Shown here piece by piece: positions 4,001-53,228 of a DNA stretch of 64,000 bases. A model generated the notes under the pieces. That model worked only from the letters and a program-made list of their open reading frames with translations, did not search any database and had not been told where the DNA came from. This DNA is from Anaerolineae bacterium (GTDB lineage Bacteria; Chloroflexota; Anaerolineae; Epilineales; Epilineaceae). Each line of letters opens with the position of its first letter. The stretch's first letter is position 1. The position numbers and the translations under genes are program-made. The stretch covers positions 83,036 to 147,035 of the forward strand of contig DAOUCP010000035.1 in NCBI GenBank assembly GCA_034432155.1. The letters run 5' to 3'.

Positions 4001-4619
4001 GTTCCTCGGCGACATCGAACGCAGTCTCGCAGGGACGGTGGTCACCTTCGCTGGCATGGTCACGGCGGTTCGGACACTCACCACCAAGCGCGGCGATCTT
4101 ATGGCCTTCGTCGTTGTCGAGGACCTGAACGGCAGCGTCGAGCTGACGGTCTTTCCGCGCGTCTACGAGGCCACCAAGGACCTCTGGCGACCAGACGTCC
4201 TCGTCCTGGTGCGCGGCAAGGTCGAACCACGAGAGGACCGCCTCCAGGTGGTGGTGGCCAGTGCCCAGTCCTACGCGCCGGATTCGCTCGCCGAGGTGGA
4301 GGAACCCGGCGCCAGCCAGTCGGCTGAGCCAGCCCAACGACCGCTAGGGCAGTACCGTCTTTCCGTCACTGTGCCTCGAACGGCGGACGATTCCCAGGAC
4401 CTGTCCCGTCTCGAGGAGATCTTCCGCCTGCTCACCAGCTTTCGGGGCCAAGACCGCTTCGCCCTGGTGGTCCCACGGGCCGAGGGCATGGTCGAGCTGG
4501 AATTCCCGAACGCCTCGACGCGCTACTGCGTCGCCCTGGTCCAGGAGCTGCAGCGCCTCGTGGGGGCAGGCGCCGTGCAGGTCACCCACGTCGCACACGG
4601 AAGGGAGAACGGTCCATGA
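1029..4619 (+). CDS. dnaE: DNA polymerase III alpha subunit
   Basis: The track ORF 555..4619 contains, from the in-frame ATG at 1029, MAATVVMASFTHLHVHSEYSLLDG. This covers the PHP domain, the polymerase core and a C-terminal OB fold. The likely true start is the second ATG at 1047 (MASFTHLHVHSEYS), downstream of a TGnTATAAT at 1022-1030. The stop overlaps the next gene (ATGA). Confidence 0.95.
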   Translation: MAATVVMASFTHLHVHSEYSLLDGLIRLPELAREARQAGFPALALTDHGVMYGAARFYHEAQEAGIKPILGCELYVARRLRTDRHPTRDRRSFHLTVLAENETGYRNLLQLVSRAQLEGFYYKPRVDRELVQRYAEGLVVLSGCLQGELPQALKDGDEATARQTLAWYRDVFGDRYYLELQDHNLDELATVNRGLLALAREFEVPLVATNDVHYLRATDVDAHEVLIQLQWKSTTQGRERRGYGPTYHLRSADEMAALFGHVPEALANTMVIAERCNVDLRFGERRLPDFPLPEGQTADSYLRQLCEAGAMERYGAVSEVIRERLDRELATIAAMGFATYFLIVWDLCRHARERGIWYNVRGSGAGSVVAYALRIANIDPLAHGLIFERFLNPARVSMPDIDLDLADDQRDELIRYAHERYGQDHVAQIITFGTLGARAAIRDAGRALELPLSLVDRIARMIPAIPGKPCSLDQVLTPAAADDEDSFFSAELAEAVHSDPDVRRLVESARSLEGLARHASTHAAGVVITDRPIIEYLPLHRSTHGEGDRSGLPVTQYAMKDIERLGLLKIDFLGLSTLTVLRRAAELVAEHHGVSIRLESIPLDDPAIYELLGSGNVTGVFQVESAGMRQMLREMQPRAFEHVTAALALYRPGPMRFIPDYIRRMHGQEEVTYLHPALVPILAETYGILIYQEQIIRIAQELAGYEPGKADLIRRAVGKKNQAELLKHHDAFVEGATERGIERQDAERIFELITKFARYGFNKAHAADYAMIVCQTAWFKARYPIEYMTALLSVDRHNTDKVALIATDCATNGIRILPPDVNQSQLDFTVEALPHDGSAEPRRAIRFGLGAIKNVGDAGAQAILAGRGDRPFANLDDLCRRVDLRAIGKRALEPLVRAGALDCLGSRDGILELLDRIISLSDTYHHASAVGQMSLFGDEIAPALPSLLPEITKGPGDVRQHLQWEKELTGLYLSDHPLHRVAAALPQDVTVFLGDIERSLAGTVVTFAGMVTAVRTLTTKRGDLMAFVVVEDLNGSVELTVFPRVYEATKDLWRPDVLVLVRGKVEPREDRLQVVVASAQSYAPDSLAEVEEPGASQSAEPAQRPLGQYRLSVTVPRTADDSQDLSRLEEIFRLLTSFRGQDRFALVVPRAEGMVELEFPNASTRYCVALVQELQRLVGAGAVQVTHVAHGRENGP

Positions 4620-8107: not shown

Positions 8108-8273
8108 CGTCCGAACGGGTGGCAGGGGCCTGCCCTTCGCATCCTGCCTCCGAAGGACGCATAATCAGGGGCGTGGGTCGACGCATGGTCGGCCCGCGCT
8201 CCCTCTTGACCGACATCGTCGGCGGCCGGGAACCGACGGTCGCTGGCCATTCCAGCTTGACGGAGGCTCTGGG

Positions 8274-11200: not shown

Positions 11201-11624
11201 CCTCGCGAATTTCGCCGATGTCGCCGGTGCGCTGGATGCCATCCCCTTCGATGCCGCGCCCGACAACGCGTTTATCTTCAGTCCGCAAGGGGCGATTTCG
11301 GCCGGCCCGGACCGATTCCACCTTGCCAGCGACGAGCTGGGATACCGCCTGGATCAGTGGACGGTGCCGATGAGCTGGGGATCCCAGACCACGCAGGCCA
11401 TCCAGAGGGTCAACGGGGCACCGCTGGCCGGTCAGCGAATCCTGGCCCTCTATCCGCAGAATGTGCCCGGCGACGGGGACATGCAGCTTCTGGCCATTCT
11501 AGAGGAGGAGGCGCCGACGCCGACGCCCATCGCCTTCCCGACCGACGAGCCGCCAGACCGCGACCACGACATCTTCCTGCCGGCAGCCCTGGTCAACGAG
11601 GTCATTGGCGTGGCCTCACCCTAG
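8274..11624 (+). CDS. Secreted S8 subtilisin-like serine protease B, paralog of A (I9 + S8 + PA)
   Basis: The track ORF 7809 overlaps protease A. The in-frame ATG at 8274 (MHRILRLAIRALALAAPLALA) gives a signal peptide with GGAGG 9 nt upstream. Motifs IAIIDQGIDYTH, HGTHVAGIAAG, GTSMAAPLVAGGAAVL. PA domain GQVALIERGTCSFSEKVANATAKGAVAALVFNNQPG. Long collinear identity to A. Confidence 0.85.
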   Translation: MHRILRLAIRALALAAPLALARPALAIQLPAVADSSLRAILTWPPSDGQQPMAVIVELRGPTTFDLVRRSAHKLGAGTVLATAARDAAFATVAAAQAPARRYVEATGAQIISTYDTALNGFLVRATPAQLERLAATPGIARIYRAPEHYPLLGDAVPLVGGQQVVESLGYTGKNVTIAIIDQGIDYTHKSLGGRGRTQDYANNNPSVVEPGSFPTDKVIGGYDFAGTDYGATGVPRPDDDPLDEGDHGTHVAGIAAGMKGNPKVHHGVAPDAKLIALKVFGRGGGTNLSTDAIEWAIEANLGATVPGSCQMPGGQQCRVDVLNMSLGSPWANGVLEQTGAVQRAVEAGIVLVAASGNDDDVPFIHGAPSASPMALAVANTFHGGLKGDVVEATVGSQTVQLEALQGGTDATGQLRLGKAMDEVGEIKAPLADFGRGCTADQPSAPEVTGQVALIERGTCSFSEKVANATAKGAVAALVFNNQPGILVMGPTAGFQADDIPAYLIRQEDGLALREQLRSVAVRIRMAKALNGTFVRSYLADVIGPGSSRGPARSGAFKPNISAPGTEIVAPKRAQGDAGIAFSGTSMAAPLVAGGAAVLIERLRAEGLAPKDAPLADPNQVTAADVAALLMNYATAHVYRDDNRLPDYVPLARQGSGRMNLLAAAKGHTLARAGYLAEIDFGIRGLVEDYTDSATVTIRNLSRETRSYDLSTEFNTPGKANRGVRYDVTPASLVLEPGASAEVRVQASVATALLAPFGAYGGARALQSGPIGDAEIDGFVVVTSRVEGGEPEVSHLPIYFLPRRAAAVVASPDPLRISPTTGSGTIVWQNNAPGDGVAELFAHLGSDALGEAPPRLDVDHVGARLGVDSQGRRMVSLAVHTQAARRVPIDSDTFVLIDANRDGTYDQAAHVGLVNGVLVTAVQQVTRQEPLAFSRQAVADFEADVNIESGIVILHVLASRIGVDESGPVRIDLGVLHLANFADVAGALDAIPFDAAPDNAFIFSPQGAISAGPDRFHLASDELGYRLDQWTVPMSWGSQTTQAIQRVNGAPLAGQRILALYPQNVPGDGDMQLLAILEEEAPTPTPIAFPTDEPPDRDHDIFLPAALVNEVIGVASP

Positions 11625-14318: not shown

Positions 14319-14552
14319 CGAACCCAGCTCGCCGTTGGCCCGGCCCTCGACCGGCTGGCCACTGGGCCGGCCGACAAGGCGAAGTGGCTGCTGGCACCGG
14401 TGCTGGAGGCACCCCTTTTTCCCACACCCCAACGCGGCCGTATAATGCGCCCTGCACGGCTCGCAACACGTGTCCGGCAGGTGCGGGTTGCCGTGCCGGC
14501 CCGCAGCCAGCGGAGCGAAGTCGCTTGGGCCTCGGCCGAGCGGAGACGACGG

Positions 14553-15284
14553 ATGACCCAGATACTGGACCTGGCGGCAATCGCCGAACAAGTGGAGGTG
14601 CCGTACCACTGCATCCCGGTGGCTCATCTGGGCAGCGCCGAGGTGTCACTGTTCATCTGCCAGGGCGCTCGGAGCTGGCATCGAAGACTGGCGCGGCCTC
14701 ACATGCTGATCGTCACCGAGGGCGTAATCACCGTCGATTGTGCTTCGGGCAAGACGATCGTCGGCGAGGGGGAAGTCGTGTCCGTGCCGGCGGAGGTGGC
14801 GTACAACACCTATTCGGGCATGCGTTCGACGGTGCTCAGCATCGAGAACCTGGGCACCACAGGACGCGACAATGGCCACGAAACGCTAGCCCCGCCAGGG
14901 CGGGCCTCAGTCACCAAGGTAAGCGCTGCTGTAACGGCCCGCAAGGCGCCCGAGTTCGCCTGGTTGCCGTGCGGCGCGGCGGGCAGCACCGTGGCTGCAG
15001 CCAGCCGCCTGCGCGGCTCGAGCGGCTTCTACGTCGTGCCCAGCGGATCGCTTCTCTTGGCCGTCTACCGCGGCGTGCTTGACTACCGCTCGGGCGAGGA
15101 AGAAGGCACGGTGGTAGGCAACCAGCTGCTCTTGGTTAACTCTGGCGAAGACCTGACACTCCGCTCGGGGCATGGCGCTACCGTCATGGCCATCGTGGCG
15201 CGCGGCGTGCCACTGCCAGCTCCGGCTGCAGCCGGCCCTGAGCCCCGCCAGGGGCAGCGCTCCGATCCACCGCCCGGTGAGTAG
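14553..15284 (+). CDS. Cupin-fold hypothetical protein
   Basis: The ORF 14400..15284 is open from 14400. A TATAAT at 14441-14446 lies inside it, so the likely start is the ATG at 14553 (MTQILDLAAIAEQVEVPYHCIPVAHLGSAEVSLFICQG...). The beta-rich sequence is consistent with a double cupin. Function is unknown. Confidence 0.45.
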   Translation: MTQILDLAAIAEQVEVPYHCIPVAHLGSAEVSLFICQGARSWHRRLARPHMLIVTEGVITVDCASGKTIVGEGEVVSVPAEVAYNTYSGMRSTVLSIENLGTTGRDNGHETLAPPGRASVTKVSAAVTARKAPEFAWLPCGAAGSTVAAASRLRGSSGFYVVPSGSLLLAVYRGVLDYRSGEEEGTVVGNQLLLVNSGEDLTLRSGHGATVMAIVARGVPLPAPAAAGPEPRQGQRSDPPPGE

Positions 15285-15368: not shown

Positions 15369-18300
15369 TTGCCGCAGCCGAGCCCGCACCCGGTGAGTTC
15401 TCGGTTCCGTCTCTGGCGCGCGGTGCTGGGAGGCTTGCTGCTCCTAACCGTAGCTGTGTGGCCCCTCGCCGAGGCCCATTCGCGAGCCGTAGCCGGCCTT
15501 GTGCGACCGCCGGCCGTGGCAGACCATCGTGCGGCAGACCGGTCGCCGACCGCAGCACGGACCCTCCCCGGCGGACGGGGTCCCCGTGCCGTGGTGGATC
15601 CCGCGCTGCGACGCGAACTGGCCCACGCGGGCGAGCGCCACATTCCGGTGATCGTCCACTTGGCTCTACCCGAAAAGAGTGAGCCCGCGGCCTCATCGGG
15701 CAATGCTCTGACCAGTCTGCAAGCGCGTCCGCTGGCCTTTGCGCGCTATGCCCAGCCGCTGCTGGCCTATCTGGAGCGCGAGCGGCAGGCCGGTCGGATT
15801 GGGCGCGTGACATCCCTGTGGCTGGCCAACGCCGTAGCAGTCACCGTGGCACCTGCGGCCCTGCCCGACCTGGCGGCGGCGCCCGGCGTGCGTTTCCTTG
15901 CCCTTGACGGCTCGCTGCATCTCGAACCCTGGCAGTCCTTGGGCGCGGATCCCGGCCGGGCAGCGGAAAGCCCGCCGCCATGGAACATCCGGGCGGTGCG
16001 GGCCGATGAGGTGTGGCGGCTCTTTGGCATCGACGGCAGCGGTGTCACCATCGCCGTCCTGGATACCGGTGTCGACGTTCACCACCCCAGCCTCCGAACG
16101 CGCTATCGGGGCTATCTGTCCGGAGGCTTCCGGAACCGGGGCAACTGGTGGTGCCGACCGGAAGACCCACTGTGCGGGTTCGGCAACGCCTACCCCGTGG
16201 ACAGCATTGGCCATGGTACCCACGTCGCCGGCACCGCCGTCGGCGGCGATGGCATCGGCGTCGCCCCCGGGGCGCACTGGATTGCTGCTCGCGTGTGCGC
16301 CGACGTCACCTGCCAGGTCAGCTGGATCATCGAAGGCCTGCAGTGGCTGTTGGCTCCGGGCGGAGCGAGCGACCTGCGTCCGGACATCGTGAACCTGAGT
16401 CTGGGCAATGAGGACAGCGACGGGAGTCTCGTGCTCAAGAACAGCATCGATGCCCTCACAGCAGCCGGCATCGTCGTCGTGGCCTCCGCCGGCAACCGCG
16501 CCGGCACCGTGACCGAGCCGGCCAGCTACCCGAACGTGATTGCCGTCGGCGCCGTGGATTCCAGCCTCCGTCGCTGGCCGCAGAGCGGCTACGGATCGAC
16601 CCTTTGGCAACAGAACAAGCCCGAACTGATGGCTCCGGGGGTGGCGATCACCTCGGCCATCCCCGGCGGCGGTTTGGGCGTGAAGACCGGCACCAGCATG
16701 GCCGCGCCACACGTCAGCGGCGTGATCGCCTTGCTCAAGCAAGCCAAGCCGGATCTTACGCCGGCCACGGTGGCAGTTATCCTGAAGCGAACGGCGACAG
16801 CTGTGGGACCCATCCAGCCGAACGCCCAGTCGGGCTGGGGCCTCGTCAACGCCTATGCGGCCGTAGCCACCGTGGGTGAGGTCGGCTTCGTGCGCGGGCG
16901 CGTGACCCGGCTCGACGGCACCGCCATTCCCTGGGCGCGCATCGGGCTGCACGAACTGGGCGGCGGTGCGCTGGCCACTGTCGAGGTGGACGAGGACGGC
17001 AAGTACGAACTCGCCGTCCGGCCTGGGGTTTACAGCCTGACGGCGGAAGCCTTCGCCTTCGGCCCTCGGACCGAGCGGCCGGTGACGGTGCAGAAGGACG
17101 AGACCAGCCAAGTGGATTTCGTCCTGGAGCCCCTCCCTTCGGTGGGCCAGTTCGCCGGCTGGGTGTACGCCCGTCGAGGTAGTCAGCGGATCCCGATGGC
17201 TGCCCGGCTGGAGCTACTGAATGTGCCAAGCGAGTTTGCCCTGCGGTCGAACCCCGACACCGGATTCAGCGCCCAACTGCCTGCCGGCCGCTACACGGTG
17301 CGTATCCGCGAGCTAGGCTACCGCATCCTGACCGACACCGTCACCATCACTGCCGGAGCCACCATCACCCGCTCCTATGAGCTTGACCCGGCACCGCGCA
17401 TCCTCCTCGTGGACGGCGACGCCTGGCTCTATCGACCGGCCATCGATCGCTTTCGCCAGGCGCTGGATCGCACCGGCTACCCGTTCGATGAGTGGCCGGT
17501 GATCGATGATTCGGCCGGACCCGGCGCCGACGGCGGCCCGCCGCGGCTGGAAGACCTCCAGCGCTACGACATCGTTGTCTGGTCGCACCATACCAGTTCG
17601 CCAGGCACGGTGAATGCCGCCGAAGTGTTGGACAAGTACCTGGCGGCAGGTGGAAGACTGTTCCTGACCGGGCAGGACATCCTGTGCCTGGATGGCGGCT
17701 CGGACGCCGGCAGCGACGCCTGCAACCGTCAGCCACAACAGCACCCGTACGTGGAGCGCCGCTTGCGCAGCCGCGTGGTGCGCGACAACTCCGGCAGCCT
17801 GACCATCATGGGCACGCCGAGCGGGCTCTTGTCAGGCCTGCGGCTGACGCTCAATGGGCCGGACAGCGCCGACAATCAGGTCGCTCCCGACGTGCTTCGG
17901 CCGCTTGATCCGTTGGCGGCAGCGCCCATTGCCACGTACGAGGGCGGTGGCGACGCCGGGATGCAGGTGGGGCCATGCGCCGCTGGGCGCGCGGTGATCT
18001 TCGGCTTCGGGTTCGAAGGCATCGCTGGGGCACGGCTGCGGGACCAGGTGATGGCACGTGTGATCGAGGGCTTGTGGCGTGCCGAACCCCCGAACCGACT
18101 GCGCCTTCGGGCGGACCTCGATCGCCGATCAGCGGACGTCGGCAGGACACTCAGTTTCACCGTCACGCTGCGCAACGTCAGCACGCTGAGCGCGACCGTC
18201 GACATTCGGTTGGCGAATCACGCCTGGCCGTGGACGCTTTGGCAGGCAGGCTTTGACAAACCGCTCGGCGAGCCACTGACGCTCGGCGGTTGCGCGCAGG

Positions 18301-19856
18301 TCGACTTCGGCGTCCGAACACGCGTGCCGGACGTGCCCCGTGGCGCCTTGGACCACGCCACCGTAGTGGCTTCCGATGGACGTGCCAGCTCCGCCGTCAG
18401 TCTTACGCTGACCGCATCTCGACTGGCCCCCCTCTTGCTCGTCGACGGCGACTTCTTCTACCAGAGCGAGGACCGGTACGTGGCCGGGCTCCGGCGGCTC
18501 GGCCTGGCATACGACCACTGGGAGCTCGGACTCTTGCGCCATGCGCCTGACATTCCGTCGGCGGCCGATCTGGCCGCCTATCCGGCGGTCATCTGGTTCA
18601 CGGGCTACGACTGGCGGCCCGACGGCAGCCTCAACCTCGACGGCCAGCGCGCCCTGGCCACGTACCTGGGAGCGGGCGGTCGGCTGCTGTTTTCCAGCGA
18701 AGACTACTTACTGATTCGTGCTACCACCCCATACACCGCCGACCGGCTGTTTCACGCCGATTTTCTGGGCGTCGCCGGCTACGCCATCGATGACGGACAA
18801 GCCCACCAGGGTCCCCTGCGCGGGGCGAAGGAGAGCATCTTGGCCGGCCTCGATGGCTGCCGTCTGCCGCTGCGCAGTCCAAGAGATGACCTCAGCGACG
18901 CGCTCGTGCCTAGACCCGAGGCTCGGCCAGCGCTGCTGGATGGCGCCGGTCAGGCCGTCGGCCTGGAGGTGGCCGTCCCACCGTTCAAGTCCCTGTTCCT
19001 GGCGCTTGACCTGGGCCTCATGGATTCGGAGTGCAGCGCCGAGATCATCCGGCGCGCGGTGGACTGGTTCAGCCCCATGCATCCAAGCTCCCTCCAGGTG
19101 GCGGATGGCCGTCTCGTCCTTGCGGGCGGCGACGACGTGCGCCTCGACTTGAAGCTGTGCAACGAAGGCCGGCAGGTGGCCTCCGGGGTGGCCGTTCACT
19201 GGGATCTGCCACCCAGCACAACGGTTACGGCGCCACCCGCGGACTGGGATTTCCTGCCGCCACGAACCCTGCGCTGGACCGGTTCGCTGGCTGCCAGCGA
19301 GCGGCGCCTCGTCACCACAGAGCTGCGTCTGGCCGACGACGTGCCGCCCAACAGCCACCTGCAGACCTCGGTGGCCATCACGGACCCGCAGGGGCTGCCC
19401 CTGCGCCGCAGCCTCAGCCTGCGAGCCAATGCCCCCGATCTGGCGCCCTCGCACAAGGCCGTCCATACCGGCCAGAGTCCACCTGCATTCGGCGAGCTGG
19501 CGACGTTCACCATCGTCGTCCGCAACTCGGGAACGCGCATCGCAAGCGCCGTGGCCGTCACCGATTGGCTGCCCAGCGGGCTGCGCCTGGTACCCCAATC
19601 GGTCCACGTCGACAGCGGTGAGGCGGCGGTAGGCGCCGATGGCCGCAGCCTGGTTTGGCATACCTCGGTGGCACCGGGGCGTGTCGCGGCCGTGTCGTAC
19701 GATGCGCGGGTGGTTACATCCGCTGGCGGACGTCTTCGCAACGTGGCGTTGGTGCGCGATGAATCGGGCACCGAGGTGTGGCTCAGCTCCGAACTGGCAG
19801 CGCAGGCGCGGTTGCCGCTCCCCTGCCTGCTCGTGGGGAGTGCGCCCGGCCGCTGA
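15369..19856 (+). CDS. Giant secreted multidomain S8 protease C (I9 + S8 + two beta-sandwich domains + two ThuA/GATase1-like domains + DUF11-like domain)
   Basis: TTG start with GGGGAG RBS. Signal peptide RLWRAVLGGLLLLTVAVWPLAEA. Motifs VTIAVLDTGVDVHHPSL, HGTHVAGTAVGG, GTSMAAPHVSGVIALL. Two ThuA-like segments (YDIVVWSHHT...GGRLFLTGQD and YPAVIWFTGYDW...GGRLLFSSED) follow. A C-terminal DUF11-like region ATFTIVVRNSGTRIASAVAVTDWLPSGL follows. Confidence 0.8.
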   Translation: MPQPSPHPVSSRFRLWRAVLGGLLLLTVAVWPLAEAHSRAVAGLVRPPAVADHRAADRSPTAARTLPGGRGPRAVVDPALRRELAHAGERHIPVIVHLALPEKSEPAASSGNALTSLQARPLAFARYAQPLLAYLERERQAGRIGRVTSLWLANAVAVTVAPAALPDLAAAPGVRFLALDGSLHLEPWQSLGADPGRAAESPPPWNIRAVRADEVWRLFGIDGSGVTIAVLDTGVDVHHPSLRTRYRGYLSGGFRNRGNWWCRPEDPLCGFGNAYPVDSIGHGTHVAGTAVGGDGIGVAPGAHWIAARVCADVTCQVSWIIEGLQWLLAPGGASDLRPDIVNLSLGNEDSDGSLVLKNSIDALTAAGIVVVASAGNRAGTVTEPASYPNVIAVGAVDSSLRRWPQSGYGSTLWQQNKPELMAPGVAITSAIPGGGLGVKTGTSMAAPHVSGVIALLKQAKPDLTPATVAVILKRTATAVGPIQPNAQSGWGLVNAYAAVATVGEVGFVRGRVTRLDGTAIPWARIGLHELGGGALATVEVDEDGKYELAVRPGVYSLTAEAFAFGPRTERPVTVQKDETSQVDFVLEPLPSVGQFAGWVYARRGSQRIPMAARLELLNVPSEFALRSNPDTGFSAQLPAGRYTVRIRELGYRILTDTVTITAGATITRSYELDPAPRILLVDGDAWLYRPAIDRFRQALDRTGYPFDEWPVIDDSAGPGADGGPPRLEDLQRYDIVVWSHHTSSPGTVNAAEVLDKYLAAGGRLFLTGQDILCLDGGSDAGSDACNRQPQQHPYVERRLRSRVVRDNSGSLTIMGTPSGLLSGLRLTLNGPDSADNQVAPDVLRPLDPLAAAPIATYEGGGDAGMQVGPCAAGRAVIFGFGFEGIAGARLRDQVMARVIEGLWRAEPPNRLRLRADLDRRSADVGRTLSFTVTLRNVSTLSATVDIRLANHAWPWTLWQAGFDKPLGEPLTLGGCAQVDFGVRTRVPDVPRGALDHATVVASDGRASSAVSLTLTASRLAPLLLVDGDFFYQSEDRYVAGLRRLGLAYDHWELGLLRHAPDIPSAADLAAYPAVIWFTGYDWRPDGSLNLDGQRALATYLGAGGRLLFSSEDYLLIRATTPYTADRLFHADFLGVAGYAIDDGQAHQGPLRGAKESILAGLDGCRLPLRSPRDDLSDALVPRPEARPALLDGAGQAVGLEVAVPPFKSLFLALDLGLMDSECSAEIIRRAVDWFSPMHPSSLQVADGRLVLAGGDDVRLDLKLCNEGRQVASGVAVHWDLPPSTTVTAPPADWDFLPPRTLRWTGSLAASERRLVTTELRLADDVPPNSHLQTSVAITDPQGLPLRRSLSLRANAPDLAPSHKAVHTGQSPPAFGELATFTIVVRNSGTRIASAVAVTDWLPSGLRLVPQSVHVDSGEAAVGADGRSLVWHTSVAPGRVAAVSYDARVVTSAGGRLRNVALVRDESGTEVWLSSELAAQARLPLPCLLVGSAPGR

Positions 19857-19963
19857 GCGCATTGCGCCTGCGCCGTCGGGCGGGCAATACGCTATAATGC
19901 GGCAGGTGCCCCAGGGCCCCACGCCGCCTCCCCGCACCGCAGCCGAAAGCGGAGCCCATCGCC

Positions 19964-21061
19964 GTGGATCGTCTTGACGAAATGGCCCGGGTCGTTCGCG
20001 ACCTGGCCGCCCAGGTCGAGGCCTTGCGCGCTAACGCCACCGGGGTGCAGGCGCGTCTGACCACCATCGAGGGACAACTCGCCGCGACGTTGGCCGCCCA
20101 GGCCGACCTGGCCGGCCAGCTGGAGCATGTGCGACTCGATCGCACGCGTTTGGCGACCTTGGAGCGAAGCCTCGGCCAGCTTGGCGAAGACCGCCAGCGA
20201 ACCATCGACCAGTTGGCAGCCGATGTGCGGCGCACCGCGGACGAAGCGCTGCGGCGCATGGCGGGGCAGTTGCAGCAGAGAAGTCATGAGCTGGCAGCGC
20301 TAGCCATGCGCGTCGATGCCTTGGAAAAGGAGGCCCAGTTCGGGACCTTGGCGGGCCAAATGGACCTCCTCGGCCAGCAGCTCGCCGCGCTGGCGGTGCG
20401 CCTGGACGAAATGCAGCGCGAGCGCCAGGCCATCGAGGAGACCGCGCGCCAGCGCGAAGACCGTACCGCAGGACGGCTGGCCGACCTCCAACGCCAGCTC
20501 GGCCAACAAGAGCAGAATGTGGCCGGCTGGCAGGCGCGAATCGAGGCCCAGAGCGAGACCGTTCGGCAGAGCCAGGCGCTCGCCGAACAGATGGCGGAGG
20601 AGGTGCGCGGACTGCAGCGCGCCCAGCACGAGCTGGCCGAGGCACAGCGCGTGTGGCGGGAGCAGCTGAGCGGCTCGCTGGCTGAGCGGCTGGCTTCCTG
20701 GGAGTCCGAGTGGCAGGCCTTCCTGGTGCAGCAAGAGCAGGCGAGGCGGCTCCGCGATGGGCATATTTCGGCCATGGAGGCTACCTTGCGCTCGCTGGAG
20801 GAACGAGTGGTCGAACTGGCCGGCCAGATCCAGGGGCAAGCGGATGCGGCGCGGCAGGAGGCACAGGCGCATGCCGACGCCCTTCGGGCCAGCCGGGAGG
20901 AGCTGCTGCGGGTGGTGACCGCGGTGCATGATCGGCTGGGCCAGGTGATCCGCGACTGGGAAGCCGACTTGCCGTACGAAGCGCGGCCGTCGGTGGTGGA
21001 GGAGCGGCGACGGGCACTCCGTCGGGAGCGCCGCGCACGGCAGGAGGCGCCCGAGGACTAG
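19964..21061 (+). CDS. Coiled-coil hypothetical protein
   Basis: GTG start with GGAG 10 nt upstream. The protein is heptad-like and Ala/Gln/Leu/Arg-rich (…LAAQVEALRANATGVQARLTTIEGQLAATLAAQADLAGQLE…). The stop lies 4 nt before the selB start. Confidence 0.5.
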   Translation: MDRLDEMARVVRDLAAQVEALRANATGVQARLTTIEGQLAATLAAQADLAGQLEHVRLDRTRLATLERSLGQLGEDRQRTIDQLAADVRRTADEALRRMAGQLQQRSHELAALAMRVDALEKEAQFGTLAGQMDLLGQQLAALAVRLDEMQRERQAIEETARQREDRTAGRLADLQRQLGQQEQNVAGWQARIEAQSETVRQSQALAEQMAEEVRGLQRAQHELAEAQRVWREQLSGSLAERLASWESEWQAFLVQQEQARRLRDGHISAMEATLRSLEERVVELAGQIQGQADAARQEAQAHADALRASREELLRVVTAVHDRLGQVIRDWEADLPYEARPSVVEERRRALRRERRARQEAPED

Positions 21062-21064
21062 CCG

Positions 21065-22987
21065 ATGCTCCAGGACAAGGTGGTCGTGATCGGCACCGCG
21101 GGCCACGTCGATCACGGGAAGAGTGCGCTCCTCAAAGCACTTACGGGCACCGATCCCGATCGCCTGGCCGTGGAACGCGAACGGGGCATGACGATCGATC
21201 TGGGCTTCGCTTGGTGCCGACTGGCCAGCGGCATGCTCGCCAGCTTCGTCGATGTGCCAGGCCACGAGGATCTCGTCCATCACATGGTCGCGGGCGCAAC
21301 GGCAACGGATGCGGTTCTCCTGGTCGTTGCCGCTGACGAGGGGCCCATGCCTCAGACCCTCGAGCACCTCCAGATCCTCGATCTCCTCGGAATCACTCGC
21401 GGTGTGGTGGCGCTGACCAAAACCGACCTGGTAGACGCCGAGTGGCTGGCGCTCATTCGTCAGGCTGTCCACGAGATGCTGGCGTCCACCTCGCTGGCCG
21501 ATGCACCCCTGGTCGAGGTGAGCGCCGTCACCGGCGACGGCCTGGGAAATCTCACCACTGCCCTGGACCGCATCCTCGCCAGCACCCCTCCTCCTTTGGA
21601 CCGCGGCCGTCCGCGATTGCCGATCGACCGCGTCTTCACATTGGCCGGACTTGGCACCATCGTCGCCGGCACGCTGCGCGATGGGACGCTCGGGGTGGGG
21701 CAAGCGGTTGTCCTTCTGCCTTCGGGCTTGCGCTCGCGGGCGCGCAGCATCCACACCTACGGCCAAGCTACGTCCACCGCCGGCCCGGGCGCCCGCACGG
21801 CCGTCAACGTGGCCGGCGTAGACGTGGGGCAGATCCGTCGGGGCGACGTGCTCGTCGCGGACATGCCGTATCCGGTTAGTCAGCGGCTGGACGTCGAGTT
21901 GCGCGTTCTGCCGACCGCCAGGCCGGTGCGGCACGACATGACGGTGGCCTTCTTCCACGGCGCAGGCCAGATTCCAGCGCGCGTGCGCACCATCGGCGGG
22001 GCGGCGATCGGGTCCGGCGAGTCGGGCTATGCCCAGCTCATTCTGGCCACGCCGGCAGTGGTGGCGGCTGGCGACCGCTTCGTGATTCGCCAGCCGTCGC
22101 CGTCGAGGACGCTGGGCGGTGGCCGCGTGCTCGACCCCTGCGCGCCCCGGCGCTGGCGAAGGCTCCGGCCCGAGACCCGCCAGCGATTCGAGGATTTGGC
22201 CAGCGGTGCAGCCGATCGCGCACTCTGGCACCTTGTCGAGGAACGTCAACCGTGTCGGCTGGCGGCTCTGCCTGCTGCCGAGAGCGGTCTGGAGGCCCAC
22301 GAGCGAGACCTTGCTGCCGCGATGCTCGAAGCGGACGGCCGAGTGAAGCGCCTTGGCGAGGTGTGGTTCACCGACCGTGGTTGGGATGCCTTGCGACGAC
22401 GGGCCGAGGCAACGGTGGCCGGCTACCATGCGCGCCATCCGTTGCGCCAGGGAATGGCGGTGGAGGAGCTTCGGCAACGACTCGGCCTGGACGGCGAAGC
22501 CTTTGCCGCCTTCTTGGTCCAGGCTGCAGCCGAAGGTTGGCTGGTGAGGGCGCCTCGAACCGTTGCTTTGCCTCGTCACCAAGTGCGTTTCCGGCCCGAG
22601 GAGCAGGCGGCGGCCGCGGCGCTCCTGGCTCGCTTCCGGACCGCACCCTACACTCCGCCCTCGGCCAAGGAGGCACGACTGGCGGTCGGTCCCGAGGTGT
22701 TGGCGGCTTTGGTCGAGCGCCAGGAACTGATGGAGGTCAGCGACGAGGTTCTGTTGAGCCACGATGCCTACGAACAGATGCGCCAAGCGGTGCTGGACAT
22801 CCTGGCCAGCGCAGGGCAGATCACCATTGCCGATCTGCGCGATCGTTTCAAGACCAGCCGTCGCTATGCCCAGGCCTTTCTGGAGCACTTGGACCGGCTG
22901 CACGTGACTCGTCGCCAGGGCGATGCCCATGTGGCAGACGTAACGAGTGAGCGTGGCGGCTCGCCGCGTGACGAGGGGCATGCGTGA
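21065..22987 (+). CDS. selB: Selenocysteine-specific translation elongation factor SelB
   Basis: G1 GHVDHGKS, G2 RGMTIDLG, G3 DVPGHE. G4 is TKTD (E. coli SelB has TKAD). G5 SAVTGDG. C-terminal winged-helix domains end ...ITIADLRDRFKTSRRYAQAFLEHLDRLHVTRR, typical of the SelB mRNA-binding domain. Confidence 0.85.
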   Translation: MLQDKVVVIGTAGHVDHGKSALLKALTGTDPDRLAVERERGMTIDLGFAWCRLASGMLASFVDVPGHEDLVHHMVAGATATDAVLLVVAADEGPMPQTLEHLQILDLLGITRGVVALTKTDLVDAEWLALIRQAVHEMLASTSLADAPLVEVSAVTGDGLGNLTTALDRILASTPPPLDRGRPRLPIDRVFTLAGLGTIVAGTLRDGTLGVGQAVVLLPSGLRSRARSIHTYGQATSTAGPGARTAVNVAGVDVGQIRRGDVLVADMPYPVSQRLDVELRVLPTARPVRHDMTVAFFHGAGQIPARVRTIGGAAIGSGESGYAQLILATPAVVAAGDRFVIRQPSPSRTLGGGRVLDPCAPRRWRRLRPETRQRFEDLASGAADRALWHLVEERQPCRLAALPAAESGLEAHERDLAAAMLEADGRVKRLGEVWFTDRGWDALRRRAEATVAGYHARHPLRQGMAVEELRQRLGLDGEAFAAFLVQAAAEGWLVRAPRTVALPRHQVRFRPEEQAAAAALLARFRTAPYTPPSAKEARLAVGPEVLAALVERQELMEVSDEVLLSHDAYEQMRQAVLDILASAGQITIADLRDRFKTSRRYAQAFLEHLDRLHVTRRQGDAHVADVTSERGGSPRDEGHA

Positions 22988-23892
22988 CTCGACAGCTCGA
23001 CGTCGCGGTGGCCATTGTGAGCTTCGAGACGGCACCGCTGCTCGAGCGGTGCTTGCGCTCCTTGCACGAGGGTGGCTTGGACGGCCTGGCCGCCGGAGTG
23101 TGGGTTTTCGACAACGCCTCGCAAGACGGCAGCGTTGCCGTGGTGCAGCGAGAGTTCCCCGACGTGCACCTCCTGATGAGCGACCGCAATCTCGGCTATG
23201 CCGCAGCGAACAACCAACTGCTGCGCGATGCGGGCTTTGCCGCCGGCGGCAGCGCCCTCGCCCGGCACGCGCTGCTGCTCAACCCCGACACCGTCGTGCC
23301 GCCGGGCGCCATTGCAGAGCTGGTGGCCTTTCTGGAAGCCGAGCCGGATATCGGCGTGGTCGGCCCCAAGCTGGTGCGCGCCGACGGTTCGCTGGACCTG
23401 GCTTGCCGCCGCAGCTTCCCCACTCCGGCCGTGTCCCTCTACCGCTTCGCGGGCCTGTCGCGCCTGTTTCCTGGAAGTCGACGGTTCGGCCGGTACAATC
23501 TGACCTACTTGGACCCAGACCTGCCCGTGGACGTGGACGCTGTGGTCGGTGCTTGCATGCTGGTCCGAGGTACGGCCATCGAGCAGGTCGGCCTGCTGGA
23601 CGAGCGCTTCTGGATGTACGGCGAAGATCTTGATTGGGCGTTCCGGATCCGCCAGGCCGGCTGGCGGGTGGTGTATCGCCCGCAGGTGACGATCCAACAC
23701 GTCAAGCGCGCTGCCGCGGCGCGAAGCTCGCGGGCCAGCTATGAGTTCACGCGTGCGATGTGGTTGTTCTATCAGAAGCACTATGCTCGCACTACGAGCC
23801 GGCCCATCCATTGGCTGATCGTGCTGGCCCTCGCCTTGCGTGGGGGTCGGCGGCTGATCGCCGAGATGCGTGCTGCCCGGAGTGGTCCGTGA
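22984..23892 (+). CDS. Glycosyltransferase family 2
   Basis: VAIVSFETAPLLERCL...VFDNASQDGS...NLGYAAANN fits the GT-A fold. The GTG start overlaps the selB stop (GTGA). The stop overlaps the next start (GTGA). Confidence 0.75.
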   Translation: MTRQLDVAVAIVSFETAPLLERCLRSLHEGGLDGLAAGVWVFDNASQDGSVAVVQREFPDVHLLMSDRNLGYAAANNQLLRDAGFAAGGSALARHALLLNPDTVVPPGAIAELVAFLEAEPDIGVVGPKLVRADGSLDLACRRSFPTPAVSLYRFAGLSRLFPGSRRFGRYNLTYLDPDLPVDVDAVVGACMLVRGTAIEQVGLLDERFWMYGEDLDWAFRIRQAGWRVVYRPQVTIQHVKRAAAARSSRASYEFTRAMWLFYQKHYARTTSRPIHWLIVLALALRGGRRLIAEMRAARSGP

Positions 23893-25319
23893 AGCGTGAT
23901 GCCCGTTGTCGCCGCCTTTGGCTGGAGCGACTGTCGCAGCTGGCGCTCGACCTCCTTGGCTTCGCCCTGGGCATTTGGCTGGCCTACGCGGTGTACCTCC
24001 GGACGGTGGTGCAGGATGCGACCGCGCCCCCCAGCGGCTTTGGGGAGTACGGCGTCGAAGTGGGACTCGGCTACCTGGTGCTGGTGCAAGTTCTCACCCT
24101 CTCGGTGGTGTTCTTCAGCGCCCGGCTTTACCACCAGCCGCGAGGAGTGTCGCGGGTGGATCTGGCGGCGCACATCCTGCGGGCCGTGTCGATTGGGATT
24201 CTCCTATCCATGGCCGTGATCAGCCTGGTGTTGCCCAGACTGGAGGTCTCGCGTCGCATCCTGGTCTACGACTGGCTTCTCACCTTCGCTCTGGTCCTCG
24301 GGCTGCGTCTTGTTCACCGGTCGGTATGGAGCAGCATTCGAAAGCGCGGCATTGGTTGCGACCGCGTGCTGGTGGTCGGAGCCGGTACCGAGGCGCAGGA
24401 CCTGCTGACGCGTATCCAGGCCCGGCCCGCCTTGGGCTACCAGGTGGTGGGCGTGGTGGCCGATGTGCCACGCTTGTCCCGCGTCCGCGGCGTGCCGATC
24501 GTCGGCCGCACGAGCCAGCTCGCGGACCTGGTCGAGCGCCTGGCGGTGGATGAGGTTCTGATTGCCCTGCCGGAGCCGTCGCGGCAACAGCTGCTGGAAC
24601 TTACGAGCCAGTGTTCGCGCGAAGGTCTGTCCGTCCGCATCTATCCCGACGTGTTTCAGATCCTCGCCAGCGAGCTGCGCATGGGGCACCTGGATGGCTT
24701 GCCGCTATTAACGATGCACGACGTGGCACTCAGCGGCTGGCGTCGATCGTTGAAGCGCTTGATCGACATCGCCTTCAGCGGCACCGCCCTAGTGCTGCTC
24801 TCGCCGCTCATGCTCCTCGTCGCCATCCTGGTGAAACTGGACTCGCCGGGCCCGGCCTTCTACGTGCAGGAACGCATGGGGCTGGACGCGCGCCCCTTTC
24901 CGATGCTGAAGTTCCGCACCATGCGGGCCGATGCCGAGCGGGATTCGGGCGCCGTCTGGGCGGTACGCGAGGATCCGCGGCGCACCCGCATTGGCCGCTG
25001 GTTGCGGCGAACGAGCATCGACGAACTGCCGCAGCTCATCAACGTGCTCCTCGGTCACATGAGCGTAGTCGGGCCGCGCCCCGAACGGCCCGAGTTCGTG
25101 CGCGAGTTCCAGCGTCAGATCCCGCGTTACATGGAGCGGCATCGCGAGAAGTCAGGCATCACCGGCTGGGCGCAGGTGAACGGGCTGCGGGGCAGCACTT
25201 CAATTGCTGAACGCACGAAATATGACCTATACTACGTTGAGAACTGGTCCCTTCTGTTTGACTTTCGCATCATGGCACTGACAGTCCTCCAGTTCTTCCG
25301 CGATCCCAACGCTTACTGA
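23889..25319 (+). CDS. Polyprenyl (undecaprenyl)-phosphate glycosylphosphotransferase, WbaP/WcaJ type (exopolysaccharide priming enzyme)
   Basis: N-terminal TM helices. C-terminal bacterial sugar transferase domain LKRLIDIAFSGTALVLLSPLMLLVAILVKLDSPGPAFYVQERMG...IDELPQLINVLLGHMSVVGPRPERP. In-frame GTG at 23889 overlaps the GT2 stop. Confidence 0.8.
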   Translation: MKRDARCRRLWLERLSQLALDLLGFALGIWLAYAVYLRTVVQDATAPPSGFGEYGVEVGLGYLVLVQVLTLSVVFFSARLYHQPRGVSRVDLAAHILRAVSIGILLSMAVISLVLPRLEVSRRILVYDWLLTFALVLGLRLVHRSVWSSIRKRGIGCDRVLVVGAGTEAQDLLTRIQARPALGYQVVGVVADVPRLSRVRGVPIVGRTSQLADLVERLAVDEVLIALPEPSRQQLLELTSQCSREGLSVRIYPDVFQILASELRMGHLDGLPLLTMHDVALSGWRRSLKRLIDIAFSGTALVLLSPLMLLVAILVKLDSPGPAFYVQERMGLDARPFPMLKFRTMRADAERDSGAVWAVREDPRRTRIGRWLRRTSIDELPQLINVLLGHMSVVGPRPERPEFVREFQRQIPRYMERHREKSGITGWAQVNGLRGSTSIAERTKYDLYYVENWSLLFDFRIMALTVLQFFRDPNAY

Positions 25320-25364
25320 CGTCTGACAAGGGCCGAACGCAGGCGGCGAGAGACCGTCGCTGTG

Positions 25365-25544
25365 GACGCCGGGCGGAGAGGAATCGCCGGTCTCGACGCC
25401 GGACGGACGGGAATCCCCGCTGTCGACGGCGGCCCGCGAGGGAGCGCAGGGGTTGACGCCGGACGGACAGGAATCCCTGGTGTCGACGGCCGGCAGAGAG
25501 GCAGCGCGGGTGTTGACGGCGGGCGAAGAGGAAGCTAGGATTAG
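25365..25544. repeat. 6 x 30-nt tandem array (two alternating unit subtypes) between the sugar-transferase stop and hrcA
   Basis: Unit starts fall at 25365, 25395, 25425, 25455, 25485 and 25515. One forward frame (GTG 25362 to TAG 25536-25538) reads a clean decapeptide repeat DAGRxGIxxV / DGGxRGSAGV. Confidence 0.65.
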
Positions 25545-25607
25545 TGCGCCGGCCGCGGCGCTTCGCCGGCGGCGAGCACCAGCCGAGGAGGCTGAGCGCC
25601 GACGACG

Positions 25608-29481: not shown

Positions 29482-29508
29482 CAGCGGCCTGGCTGCGATC
29501 CTATAATC
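29478..29508 (+). promoter_or_regulatory. Consensus sigma70-type promoter: -35 TTGACA (29478-29483), 19-nt spacer, -10 TATAAT (29503-29508)
   Basis: A perfect TTGACA overlaps the rsmE stop. TATAAT is isolated in the GC-rich background and lies about 40 nt upstream of the ATG at 29551. Confidence 0.5.
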
Positions 29509-29550
29509 CTCGTTTGCGCGCCGCATGCCCGAGCGAGCTCTTCCCCGGAA

Positions 29551-30300
29551 ATGCCGAAACCAATCGACACGCCTGAATACTGGCTGGAATCGTTCACACC
29601 CACAAGCCACGAGCTGGACCACGTCTACGAGCGCGTTCTGGAAGCGGGCCGCCCGGCGGAGTTGGAGCAGTTGGCCCGGGAGCTGATCCGCTACCACGTG
29701 GACCGGATCACGCAAGCTCACCGCGCCAGTGCCAGTGGCGGCGTTCTGTATCGGCCGGCCGATCGATACACCGTCGGCCAGAAGGTGGTCTTCCCGATCC
29801 TGGAAGGCGCCGTGGGGACGGTCGATCGGGTGCGGCCGGGCAACAATCCGCACTACGGCCCGTATGAGGTCATTCGAGTCAAACTGCCCGGTGGCAGCCG
29901 CGAGTTCGCCGCCGGCCTGCAGACCGAACATGCCCTCAACCAGCAGCTGGGCGAGGTCGACCCCGAGGCCATTGCGGAGCGCTTCGCCGATCTCGTGACT
30001 CATCAGCTGCGCGAGATCCTGGGCGCCGATGCGGAGTGGGTCTCCCAGGGCGATCGCTGGGTCATCCGAGCCCTTCTGCCGGAAATCAACATGGGGCACT
30101 GCAACCTGGCCGAAGCCGTCCTGCTCTTGAGCGGCAATCCGTTGCCGGCGTCTGAGATCCTGCCGGAGCTGGGGGTCGATGAGAGCGCCCCTCTGGAAGC
30201 CTGGTCGATGGCCCTGGACCTGGCACTCGCTGCCGATGATCGTTTCCGCAACGTAGGCACCATCGATGCGCCGCTCTGGGCGCTCAAGGCGGCCTACTAG
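29551..30300 (+). CDS. Hypothetical protein (no recognisable domain)
   Basis: 249-aa ORF with no antisense competitor of note. It sits downstream of a strong promoter. Confidence 0.55.
   Translation: MPKPIDTPEYWLESFTPTSHELDHVYERVLEAGRPAELEQLARELIRYHVDRITQAHRASASGGVLYRPADRYTVGQKVVFPILEGAVGTVDRVRPGNNPHYGPYEVIRVKLPGGSREFAAGLQTEHALNQQLGEVDPEAIAERFADLVTHQLREILGADAEWVSQGDRWVIRALLPEINMGHCNLAEAVLLLSGNPLPASEILPELGVDESAPLEAWSMALDLALAADDRFRNVGTIDAPLWALKAAY

Positions 30301-51875: not shown

Positions 51876-53228
<1,353 letters not shown>

What the first reader, a model, noticed from the sequence alone, without database searches (positions are those of the whole stretch)
19964..25319. selB is translationally coupled to exopolysaccharide genes in a four-gene string: coiled-coil protein, SelB, GT2, WbaP
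The stop and start codons of the four genes are 4 nt apart or overlap (TAG..ATG, GTGA, GTGA), implying co-translation. SelB has all the Sec-specific features: a TKTD G4 box like E. coli TKAD, and C-terminal winged helices. No selA, selD, tRNA-Sec or selenoprotein gene is visible in 64 kb. Embedding selB between an unknown coiled-coil protein and polysaccharide-priming enzymes is not a described arrangement. Two readings are possible. One is that the organism uses selenoproteins and this is an accidental operon fusion. The other is that the SelB paralog and its coiled-coil partner have a function tied to envelope glycan synthesis.
Basis: partly seen in the sequence, partly recalled or inferred. 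Interest (0 to 1): 0.6.

Follow-up and report, generated by a model that had tools for sequence, protein, structure and literature searches.

The report
Ordinary selB behind a coiled-coil gene
This is a normal-looking selenocysteine elongation factor gene (selB) of a Chloroflexi bacterium; its link to sugar-transferase genes is a lineage-specific accident of gene order, but its pairing with an uncharacterised coiled-coil gene upstream is conserved across the whole clade and remains unexplained.

Summary
The four-gene string is real: a coiled-coil protein (19964-21061), SelB (21065-22987), a GT2 (22984-23892) and a phosphoglycosyl transferase (23889-25319). The junctions are TAG-ccg-ATG, GTGA and GTGA, and each start has a Shine-Dalgarno-like motif.

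SelB passes the NCBIfam equivalog cut-off. It aligns end to end with E. coli SelB and keeps the D180/R181/R236 pocket positions and the last winged-helix motif. The window holds no selA, selD, tRNA-Sec or selenoprotein gene.

Ten relatives' loci separate the two linkages. GT2 and the transferase follow selB only in one monophyletic subclade; elsewhere they are replaced by NurA/HerA-type, groEL-side or other genes. The same gene string continues into hrcA-dnaJ-prmA-rsmE, and dnaE overlaps a secreted subtilase by ATGA in this window. Overlap is therefore not evidence of shared function here.

The deeply conserved feature is the upstream coiled-coil gene. All 9 relatives' loci reached through SelB have it abutting selB, as does the window. 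It occupies the position selA has in E. coli selAB. The family is large, has no Pfam match, and carries only Chloroflexi names where a name is given. In Aggregatilinea lenta it occurs with no selB nearby.

Verdict: a canonical selB in an undescribed operon layout. A role in glycan synthesis is not supported.

The parts
19857..19963 (+). 107-nt spacer upstream of the coiled-coil gene. It contains TATAAT at 19893-19898 and GGAG at 19952-19955. It is the presumed promoter and 5' UTR of the string.
   Evidence: Read from the sequence. The consensus scan found no full -35/-10 pair here, so the promoter assignment is inferred.
19964..21061 (+). Gene for a 365-aa all-helical coiled-coil protein with a basic C-terminal tail (ERRRALRRERRARQ). 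It belongs to a family with no Pfam match; every family member that carries an organism name is Chloroflexi.
   Evidence: ORF. No Pfam or NCBIfam hit above cut-off. AlphaFold2 gives helices 2-117, 128-335 and 344-360. Homologues lie directly upstream of selB in all relatives' loci reached through SelB. The family has 112 proteins in the word-indexed search and at least 270 clusters at E<=1e-30.
21065..22987 (+). selB, the selenocysteine-specific elongation factor, 640 aa.
   Evidence: TIGR00475 at 326.6 bits, above the 242.25 cut-off. Five SelB/EF-Tu Pfam domains. Aligns with E. coli SelB residues 2-604 at E=1e-75, with IDR (D180/R181), GAR (R236) and the C-terminal SRRYA..LEHLDR..TRR..GD motif conserved.
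22984..23892 (+). Family-2 glycosyltransferase, 302 aa. Its start overlaps the selB stop (GTGA).
   Evidence: Pfam PF13641 and PF00535. It is 64-78% identical to orthologues in the same position in L002, L003, L004, L006 and L008.
23889..25319 (+). Polyprenyl-phosphate hexose-1-phosphate transferase of WcaJ/EPS type, 476 aa from GTG 23889. Its start overlaps the GT2 stop (GTGA).
   Evidence: TIGR03025 at 481 bits and TIGR03023 at 470 bits, both above cut-off; WbaP TIGR03022 below cut-off. Pfam Bac_transf plus CoA_binding_3. It is 90.5% identical over residues 1-476 to the L002 gene, which has the same 4-nt overlap.
25320..25607 (+). 288-nt spacer that ends the string. It holds a 30-nt tandem array (25361-25533) and the only sigma-70-like promoter match in the region (25513-25541), just ahead of hrcA.
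   Evidence: No CIRCE element was found anywhere in the window.

Best explanation
This is the canonical selB of an Anaerolineae-type Chloroflexi bacterium that most likely makes selenoproteins. The other Sec genes (selA, selD, selC) would lie outside the 64-kb window.

In this clade selB is the second gene of a tight two-gene unit headed by a Chloroflexi-specific coiled-coil protein gene. That gene sits where selA sits in the E. coli selAB operon. The stop and start are 3 nt apart, and a GAGGA motif lies inside the end of the upstream gene. selB is therefore probably co-transcribed with the upstream gene and translated by ribosomes that have just finished it, which would tie its level to the upstream gene.

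In one subclade a GT2 gene and a WcaJ-like priming transferase gene came to lie directly behind selB and have been inherited vertically since. This is a neighbourhood effect in a compact genome, not a functional tie between selenocysteine decoding and glycan synthesis.

Shown: the gene identities, the junctions, and the two different depths of synteny conservation. Inferred: co-transcription, translational coupling, the Sec trait of the organism, and the absence of a functional link.
For: SelB identity:
- Equivalog HMM score above cut-off.
- Full-length alignment to E. coli SelB (5lzb) at E=1e-75.
- The positions that align with E. coli D180, R181 and R236 are conserved, as is the last winged-helix motif, in all 10 Chloroflexi SelB sequences compared.

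Sec trait:
- In more than 5200 genomes SelB presence matched the Sec trait perfectly. Anaerolinea thermophila, Caldilinea aerophila and other Chloroflexi have SelA, SelB and SelD plus 1-9 selenoproteins (PMC5029168).
- Chloroflexi tRNA-Sec has been described (PMC5389517).

GT linkage is shallow:
- GT2 and PGT follow selB in the window, L002, L003, L004/5, L006 and L008/L011 only.
- These loci form one clade in a SelB neighbour-joining tree.
- In L009 the following genes have NurA and DUF87 (HerA-type) domains. In L010 there is a convergent gene followed by groEL-groES. In L013 there is an HHH protein. In Ardenticatena (L007) neither is called.
- Even within the clade, the selB-GT2 spacing ranges from -13 to +39 nt and the GT2-PGT spacing from -11 to +96 nt.

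cc linkage is deep:
- A cc gene lies directly upstream of selB in all 9 relatives' loci reached through SelB, as in the window.
- The gap is -4 to +8 nt in 9 of the 10 junctions measured (window plus nine loci).

Controls:
- dnaE and a secreted subtilase share ATGA in this window.
- The same strand continues into hrcA-dnaJ-prmA-rsmE.
- E. coli selA and selB also overlap by 4 nt.
Against: - No selA, selD, tRNA-Sec, SECIS family or selenoprotein gene is present in the window or in about 228 kb of relatives' loci. The Sec trait therefore rests on inference.
- Gene order conserved between proteins only 13-30% identical (cc) and about 48% identical (SelB) is more than neutral drift usually preserves. 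Some functional or regulatory tie between cc and selB cannot be dismissed.
- Co-transcription is not shown. The promoter and terminator scans are crude, and Chloroflexi promoters may not fit the sigma-70 consensus.
Confidence: 0.75

Rival explanations
1. The coiled-coil protein is a lineage-specific working partner of SelB. It might act as a scaffold or RNA-binding adaptor that helps SelB find SECIS-bearing mRNAs or ribosomes, or as a regulator of SelB level. Selection for co-expression would then maintain the cc-selB pair.
For: - A cc gene abuts selB in all 9 relatives' loci reached through SelB and in the window, across SelB identities of 47-72%. The flanking genes differ completely between the two subclades.
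- cc occupies the slot that selA has in E. coli.
- One subclade of the family has a conserved arginine-rich C-terminal tail, ERRQALRRALRARR.
- The family is coherent. Matches run end to end, lengths are about 390 aa, and there are at least 270 clusters at E<=1e-30.
Against: - In Aggregatilinea lenta the cc homologue stands alone. Two divergent GT4 genes lie on one side and a convergent EPSP-synthase-family gene on the other. tblastn finds no trace of selB within 10 kb.
- No cc-SelB fusion proteins were seen.
- cc sequences diverge much faster than SelB: 13-30% against 47-57% identity for all relatives except the closest, L002 (58% against 72%).
- The basic tail is missing in L007, L009 and L010.
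- No RNA-binding or translation-related domain was found by Pfam, NCBIfam or Foldseek.
- SelB works without such a factor in E. coli.
Confidence: 0.13
2. The SelB-like GTPase and the coiled-coil protein have been recruited to envelope polysaccharide synthesis or its regulation. The four genes would then form one functional module.
For: - Junctions are tight across all four genes.
- The block is conserved in six loci of one subclade.
- The neighbourhood is rich in envelope genes: GT4, two PMT_2 genes and secreted S8 peptidases.
- cc in A. lenta also lies beside GT4 genes.
Against: - GT2 and PGT are absent beside selB in four sister lineages.
- SelB retains the Sec-pocket positions and the SECIS-binding winged-helix motif. 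A non-Sec role would not be expected to keep these.
- The selB-GT2 and GT2-PGT spacings are not conserved.
- The same kind of overlap links dnaE to a protease.
- No precedent was found in the literature searches.
Confidence: 0.03
3. The lineage has lost selenocysteine use, and this selB is an orphan: either decaying or serving another recoding task, such as Cys insertion at UGA as proposed for SelB*.
For: - No other Sec component lies within 64 kb, nor in any of the relatives' loci.
- SelB* paralogues exist in Deltaproteobacteria (PMC5389517).
Against: - The ORF is intact in every relative examined and the pocket residues are conserved.
- Orphan SelB was not seen in more than 5200 genomes (PMC5029168).
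- sel genes are often dispersed, so absence from 64 kb says little.
- No selC*-like tRNA lies next to it.
Confidence: 0.07

Closest known systems
E. coli selAB operon (selA stop overlaps selB start)
   Same: selB is the downstream, tightly abutted second gene of a small operon. E. coli selA 3759858-3761249 and selB 3758017-3759861 overlap by 4 nt. The SelB protein aligns end to end at E=1e-75.
   Different: The upstream gene here is not selA. It is an uncharacterised 365-aa coiled-coil protein. Its weak SelA Pfam hit (E=0.0076, below cut-off) occurs in only 1 of 27 family members and is a chance match. Two glycan genes also follow selB here.
Bacterial SelB (TIGR00475; structures 5LZB E. coli, 4ZU9 Aquifex aeolicus)
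   Same: The domain order is the same: GTPase, domain II, beta-barrel, then winged helices. The TKxD G4 box, the D/R/R aminoacyl-pocket positions and the C-terminal winged-helix motif are all present.
   Different: No difference was detected at the sequence level. Only the genomic context differs.
selC nested in or overlapping selB (Alpha- and Gammaproteobacteria, Nitrospirae; Mukai 2021, as cited in PMC13188914)
   Same: It is another case in which the gene layout around selB is thought to set the SelB level.
   Different: No tRNA-Sec lies inside or beside selB here, by ARAGORN or by Rfam down to E=5.
SelB*/selC* tRNA-Cys modules of Deltaproteobacteria (PMC5389517)
   Same: A selB-family gene sits in an unusual context.
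   Different: Those modules are second copies placed downstream of a selC* tRNA gene, sometimes with cysS*. Here there is no adjacent tRNA, no cysS, and no sign of a second copy.
EPS/colanic-acid type initiation pair (GT2 plus WcaJ-like phosphoglycosyl transferase)
   Same: The transferase has the Bac_transf catalytic domain with an N-terminal membrane and CoA_binding_3 region. It scores above the TIGR03023 and TIGR03025 cut-offs, and a GT2 gene is overlapped with it.
   Different: No flippase, polymerase, chain-length regulator or export gene lies in the string. The nearest other glycan genes (GT4, PMT_2) are several kilobases away.

Membership tests
Bacterial SelB (selenocysteine-specific EF) | Score above the curated equivalog cut-off (TIGR00475) | tested here: met
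   326.6 bits against a cut-off of 242.25, covering residues 7-623 of the protein and positions 1-578 of the 581-position profile.
Bacterial SelB (selenocysteine-specific EF) | EF-Tu-like domains I-III followed by a C-terminal winged-helix extension | tested here: met
   PF00009, PF03144, PF25461, PF09106 and PF09107 all score above their gathering thresholds. The protein aligns with E. coli SelB residues 2-604.
Bacterial SelB (selenocysteine-specific EF) | Aminoacyl-pocket residues at E. coli positions D180, R181 and R236. Their role in Sec recognition is recalled from the SelB structure literature, not tested here. | tested here: met
   PIDRVF and GARTAVN align with E. coli AIDRAF and GQRIALN. 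The positions are conserved in all 10 Chloroflexi SelB sequences compared.
Bacterial SelB (selenocysteine-specific EF) | Co-occurrence in the genome with selA, selD, tRNA-Sec and UGA/SECIS selenoprotein genes | not testable with these tools
   None was found in the 64-kb window or in the relatives' loci. The rest of the genome could not be reached: there was no exact contig record, and the genome scan found only a 35%-identical Planctomycete locus.
Bacterial SelB (selenocysteine-specific EF) | Binds Sec-tRNA-Sec, GTP and SECIS RNA | not testable with these tools
   This needs biochemistry.
WbaP (Und-P galactose phosphotransferase, TIGR03022) | Score above the curated cut-off | tested here: not met
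   266.6 bits against a cut-off of 403.
WcaJ-type / EPS polyprenyl glycosylphosphotransferase (TIGR03023, TIGR03025) | Score above the curated cut-off, plus a Bac_transf catalytic domain | tested here: met
   470.4 bits against 410.75 and 481.4 bits against 295.55. PF02397 hits at E=1e-69, with PF13727 also present.
Glycosyltransferase family 2 | GT-A fold Pfam models score above threshold | tested here: met
   PF13641 at 64.7 bits and PF00535 at 47.5 bits. No specific equivalog was reached.
SMC / chromosome segregation ATPase (the name JGI gives to many coiled-coil homologues) | ABC-type ATPase head domains, and a score above the SMC cut-offs | tested here: not met
   TIGR02168 scores 23 bits against a cut-off of 567. 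Only the coiled-coil part matches and there is no ATPase domain. The Foldseek best match has E=0.12, to an SMC arm fragment.
SelA (the gene that precedes selB in E. coli) | PF03841 scores above threshold and the hit is consistent across the family | tested here: not met
   15.7 bits against a cut-off of 22.8, seen in 1 of 27 family members only. The protein is predicted to be all-helical.
Translationally coupled operon | Stop and start overlap or lie within a few nt, with a ribosome-binding motif inside the upstream gene | tested here: met
   The gaps are +3, -4 and -4 nt. GAGGA, GAGGGG and GGAG lie 5-7 nt before the three downstream starts.
Translationally coupled operon | Downstream translation depends on upstream translation, on a single transcript | not testable with these tools
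   No internal sigma-70-like promoter was found, and terminator-like sites do not exceed chance. This is weak negative evidence only.

The most novel reading that the evidence does not exclude
The coiled-coil protein, from a family whose named members are all Chloroflexi, is an accessory factor of the selenocysteine-insertion machinery. It would be a bacterial protein that works with SelB, for example by tethering or regulating it. That would explain why its gene has stayed abutted to selB across an entire class while everything else around it changed.
Probability: 0.12. Interest if true: 0.7.

Novelty: new variant of a known kind. Interest (0 to 1): 0.3.

Why it matters
For selenium biology the result is modest. 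It documents a selB operon layout (coiled-coil gene then selB) that the two literature searches run here did not turn up. The layout is typical of Anaerolineae-type Chloroflexi, and it yields one testable candidate for a SelB-associated protein.

For genome interpretation it is a useful caution. Overlapping stop and start codons in a compact, GC-rich genome join unrelated genes here, both dnaE/protease and selB/GT2. Comparing relatives quickly separates shallow linkages from deep ones.

It gives no reason to think that selenocysteine decoding is tied to envelope glycan synthesis.

Tried and rejected
- The sub-threshold SelA hit of the coiled-coil protein was rejected. It appears in 1 of 27 family members; the others hit only generic coiled-coil families.
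- A tRNA-Sec nested in or next to selB, or a SECIS-like Rfam family, was not found by ARAGORN or by Rfam at gathering score, at E<=5 locally, or at E<=0.5 window-wide. None was found in 12 relatives' loci either.
- A selenoprotein gene in the window was not found. Pfam domains of the ORFs scanned are unbroken. The three thioredoxin-fold genes (46845-47987, 47889-48767, 50931-51869) are uninterrupted ORFs. The same-frame TGA continuations (GT4 into 14319-15284, rsmE into 29482-30300, hrcA into dnaJ) are separate genes in L002.
- A fold-based function for the coiled-coil protein was not obtained. The best Foldseek PDB match has E=0.12 and all matches are generic antiparallel coiled coils (SMC arms, chemoreceptor, RipA/PcsB/EnvC).
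- Domain fusions in longer family members were uninformative.
- A read-through fusion of cc and SelB was rejected. The two genes are in the same frame in 4 of 10 loci, which is about chance.
- Fetching the source genome failed. The exact-protein look-ups returned nothing, and the genome scan returned only a Planctomycete locus.
- The metagenome scan with the cc alignment gave one locus that duplicates L008.
- A CIRCE operator before hrcA, as a marker of the operon boundary, was absent.
- Whether Aggregatilinea lenta or Ardenticatena maritima carry the full Sec trait could not be established from the papers available.


Full report
**Observation**

The window is about 68% GC. Third-position GC bias marks a run of plus-strand genes. 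Four of them lie at the reported coordinates:
- a 365-aa protein with no family assignment (19964-21061);
- SelB (21065-22987);
- a GT2 glycosyltransferase (22984-23892);
- a large phosphoglycosyl transferase, here PGT. Its ORF opens at 23760, but its likely start is GTG 23889, and it ends at 25319.

The junctions were read directly from the sequence. They are TAG-ccg-ATG (a 3-nt gap), GTGA and GTGA. GGAG, GAGGA, GAGGGG and GGAG motifs lie 5-9 nt before the four starts. The gap is 3 nt rather than 4. The transferase scores above the WcaJ/EPS cut-offs (TIGR03023 at 470 bits, TIGR03025 at 481 bits) but below the WbaP cut-off.

**SelB identity**

- It scores 326.6 bits on the NCBIfam selB equivalog, against a cut-off of 242.25.
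- It carries GTP_EFTU, domain 2, the SelB beta-barrel and two SelB winged-helix Pfam domains.
- It aligns with E. coli SelB (PDB 5LZB) from residue 2 to 604 at E=1e-75.
- In that alignment the G4 box is LTKTD (E. coli LTKAD). The residues opposite E. coli D180, R181 and R236 are D, R and R. To my knowledge these form the selenocysteine-recognising pocket.
- The last winged helix keeps the SR(R/K)YA..LE.LDR..TRR.GD motif.
- All of this is conserved in the ten Chloroflexi SelB sequences compared.
- Nothing marks the protein as a degenerate or re-purposed paralogue.

**Other Sec genes in the window**

- ARAGORN finds no tRNA.
- Rfam finds nothing at gathering score or at E<=0.5 over the whole window, and nothing relevant at E<=5 around the string.
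- Pfam scans of about 35 ORFs give dnaE, four S8 subtilases, a GT4, two PMT_2 proteins, hrcA, dnaJ, prmA, rsmE, guaA, dnaB, ligA, three thioredoxin-fold proteins, ahcY, a lactate permease and others.
- There is no SelA, SelD or formate dehydrogenase, and no domain is interrupted by a stop.
Sixty-four kilobases is a small part of a genome, and sel genes are often dispersed.

**Source and relatives**

- An identical SelB sits on a 161-kb NCBI contig, but its contig record could not be fetched.
- Named homologues are Chloroflexi: Anaerolineae MAGs, Ardenticatena maritima and 'Chloroflexi bacterium B3_Chlor'.
- Contexts were retrieved for nine SelB homologues of 47-72% identity and for two homologues of the upstream protein.

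**Comparative result**

GT2 and PGT follow selB in the window, L002, L003, L004/L005, L006 and L008/L011. These loci form one clade in a neighbour-joining tree of SelB.

In the sister group the downstream genes differ:
- L009 has NurA-domain and DUF87 (HerA-type) genes.
- L010 has a convergent small gene followed by groEL-groES.
- L013 has an HHH protein.
- Ardenticatena (L007) has nothing comparable.

Even within the GT clade the spacings drift. The selB-GT2 spacing ranges from -13 to +39 nt and the GT2-PGT spacing from -11 to +96 nt. The glycan genes therefore joined selB once and have been inherited since. Selection does not appear to hold the junctions.

In every relative's locus reached through SelB (9 of 9), as in the window, the gene immediately upstream encodes a 364-414-aa protein with no Pfam match. 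Its stop is -4 to +8 nt from the selB start in 9 of the 10 junctions measured. The exception, L006, has a 79-nt gap that may reflect a mis-called start.

**The upstream protein**

- The sequences align along their whole length, but only at 13-30% identity outside the closest relative.
- Profile searches show a coherent family. The word-indexed search finds 112 proteins of 340-431 aa plus one outlier of 723 aa; every hit that carries an organism name is from Chloroflexi. The exhaustive search finds at least 270 clusters at E<=1e-30 and 651 at E<=1e-10. Most matches run end to end, at about 390 aa.
- JGI labels many of them 'chromosome segregation ATPase'. This is a coiled-coil artefact. The SMC models score about 20 bits against cut-offs above 500, and there is no ATPase head.
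- AlphaFold2 predicts three helices (2-117, 128-335 and 344-360) with mean pLDDT 80.
- Foldseek against the PDB gives no match better than E=0.12. All matches are generic antiparallel coiled coils.
- Longer family members carry no informative extra domains.
- The sub-threshold SelA hit of the window protein is not shared by the family.
- One subclade, including the window, has an arginine-rich C-terminal tail.

**Is cc a partner of SelB?**

The depth of the synteny is the argument for. It is also suggestive that cc sits where selA sits in E. coli, where selA and selB overlap by 4 nt.

Against it:
- In Aggregatilinea lenta a clear family member (P0182, E=1.7e-31) stands alone. Two divergent GT4 genes lie on one side and a convergent EPSP-synthase-family gene on the other. 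tblastn finds no trace of selB within 10 kb.
- The second locus found through cc (L013) does have selB 2 nt downstream.
- No fusions and no translation-related domains were found.

I put this reading at about 0.13.

**Does overlap imply function here?**

The window has its own control. dnaE ends at 4619. A secreted S8 subtilase, whose signal peptide starts at residue 1 and which has a GGAAGGGAG motif upstream, starts at 4616, giving ATGA. The string itself is followed on the same strand by hrcA-dnaJ-prmA-rsmE, a conserved housekeeping cluster present in L002, L003 and L006 as well. Tight packing of unrelated genes is normal in this genome.

**Does the organism use selenocysteine?**

This could not be tested directly. 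Two published results make it likely:
- A survey of more than 5200 bacterial genomes found SelB presence perfectly consistent with the Sec trait. It lists Anaerolinea thermophila, Caldilinea aerophila, Chloroflexus, Sphaerobacter, Thermomicrobium and others with SelD, SelA and SelB plus 1-9 selenoproteins (PMC5029168).
- Chloroflexi tRNA-Sec with an 8/4 acceptor/T-stem structure has been described (PMC5389517).

Together with the intact pocket and winged-helix motifs, I estimate about 0.85-0.9 that this is a working Sec factor.

**Operon boundaries**

- Upstream, a 107-nt spacer contains TATAAT (19893-19898) but no recognisable -35 element.
- Downstream, a 288-nt spacer contains a 30-nt tandem array and the only sigma-70-like match of the region, just before hrcA.
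- No internal promoter-like site was found, and terminator-like sites do not exceed chance.
- This is consistent with a four-gene transcript but does not prove one.

**Conclusion**

The interpretation that SelB and its neighbour act in envelope glycan synthesis is not supported. The 'accidental juxtaposition in a Sec user' reading is the best fit. The feature worth recording is the clade-wide coiled-coil-gene/selB pair. My two literature searches did not turn up this selB operon layout. Its meaning, whether expression coupling only or a real partnership, is open.

Noticed in passing
window 25361-25533: A tandem array with a 30-nt period and 5.8 copies (also read as a 60-nt period, 2.3 copies, 82% match). 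It lies in the spacer between the transferase gene and hrcA. The units carry TCGACG/TTGACG, and the last one forms the only sigma-70-like promoter match of the region (25513-25541). No CIRCE operator exists anywhere in the window although hrcA is present, and hrcA is followed directly by dnaJ with no grpE or dnaK between them.
   Followed up: partly
window 4616-4619: dnaE (555-4619) and a secreted S8 subtilase (4616-8107) overlap by ATGA. The subtilase has a signal peptide from residue 1. This is an example of stop/start overlap between unrelated genes in the same genome.
   Followed up: yes
L001:10001-11860 (Planctomycetales MAG, CAYUQT010000034.1): This SelB homologue, 35% identical, reads N and C at the positions aligned with E. 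coli SelB D180 and R236 (PINRSFS, GQCSAVNV). It may have an altered aminoacyl pocket.
   Followed up: no
window 4616-8107, 7809-11624, 15369-19856, 52841-56896: Four very large S8 subtilases of 1163-1495 aa. Three have PA domains. One has CarboxypepD_reg, PEGA and DUF11 domains. The one before the coiled-coil gene is syntenic in L002, L004-L006 and L008.
   Followed up: partly
L004:6104-6763, L006:5948-6607, L008:8104-8763, L009:8193-8849: A stand-alone PhoU-domain gene (218-219 aa) lies directly upstream of the coiled-coil gene in both subclades. PhoU-cc-selB may therefore be the ancestral order. It is absent at this position in the window, L002 and L003.
   Followed up: no
L004:13498-13694, L008:14554-14744: An FMN riboswitch lies ahead of the rib operon shortly after the transferase gene. 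It marks the end of the selB-containing string in those relatives, where hrcA-dnaJ is not adjacent.
   Followed up: no
L012:10001-11215 (Aggregatilinea lenta BFCB01000003.1): The coiled-coil family member stands alone here. It is flanked by two divergent GT4 genes and a convergent EPSP-synthase-family gene, with no selB within 10 kb. A CBASS-like E2/ThiF cluster lies 8 kb downstream.
   Followed up: partly
window 19964-22987: The coiled-coil gene and selB are in the same reading frame, separated only by TAG-CCG. The frame is shared in 4 of 10 loci, about the chance rate, so programmed read-through is unlikely.
   Followed up: yes
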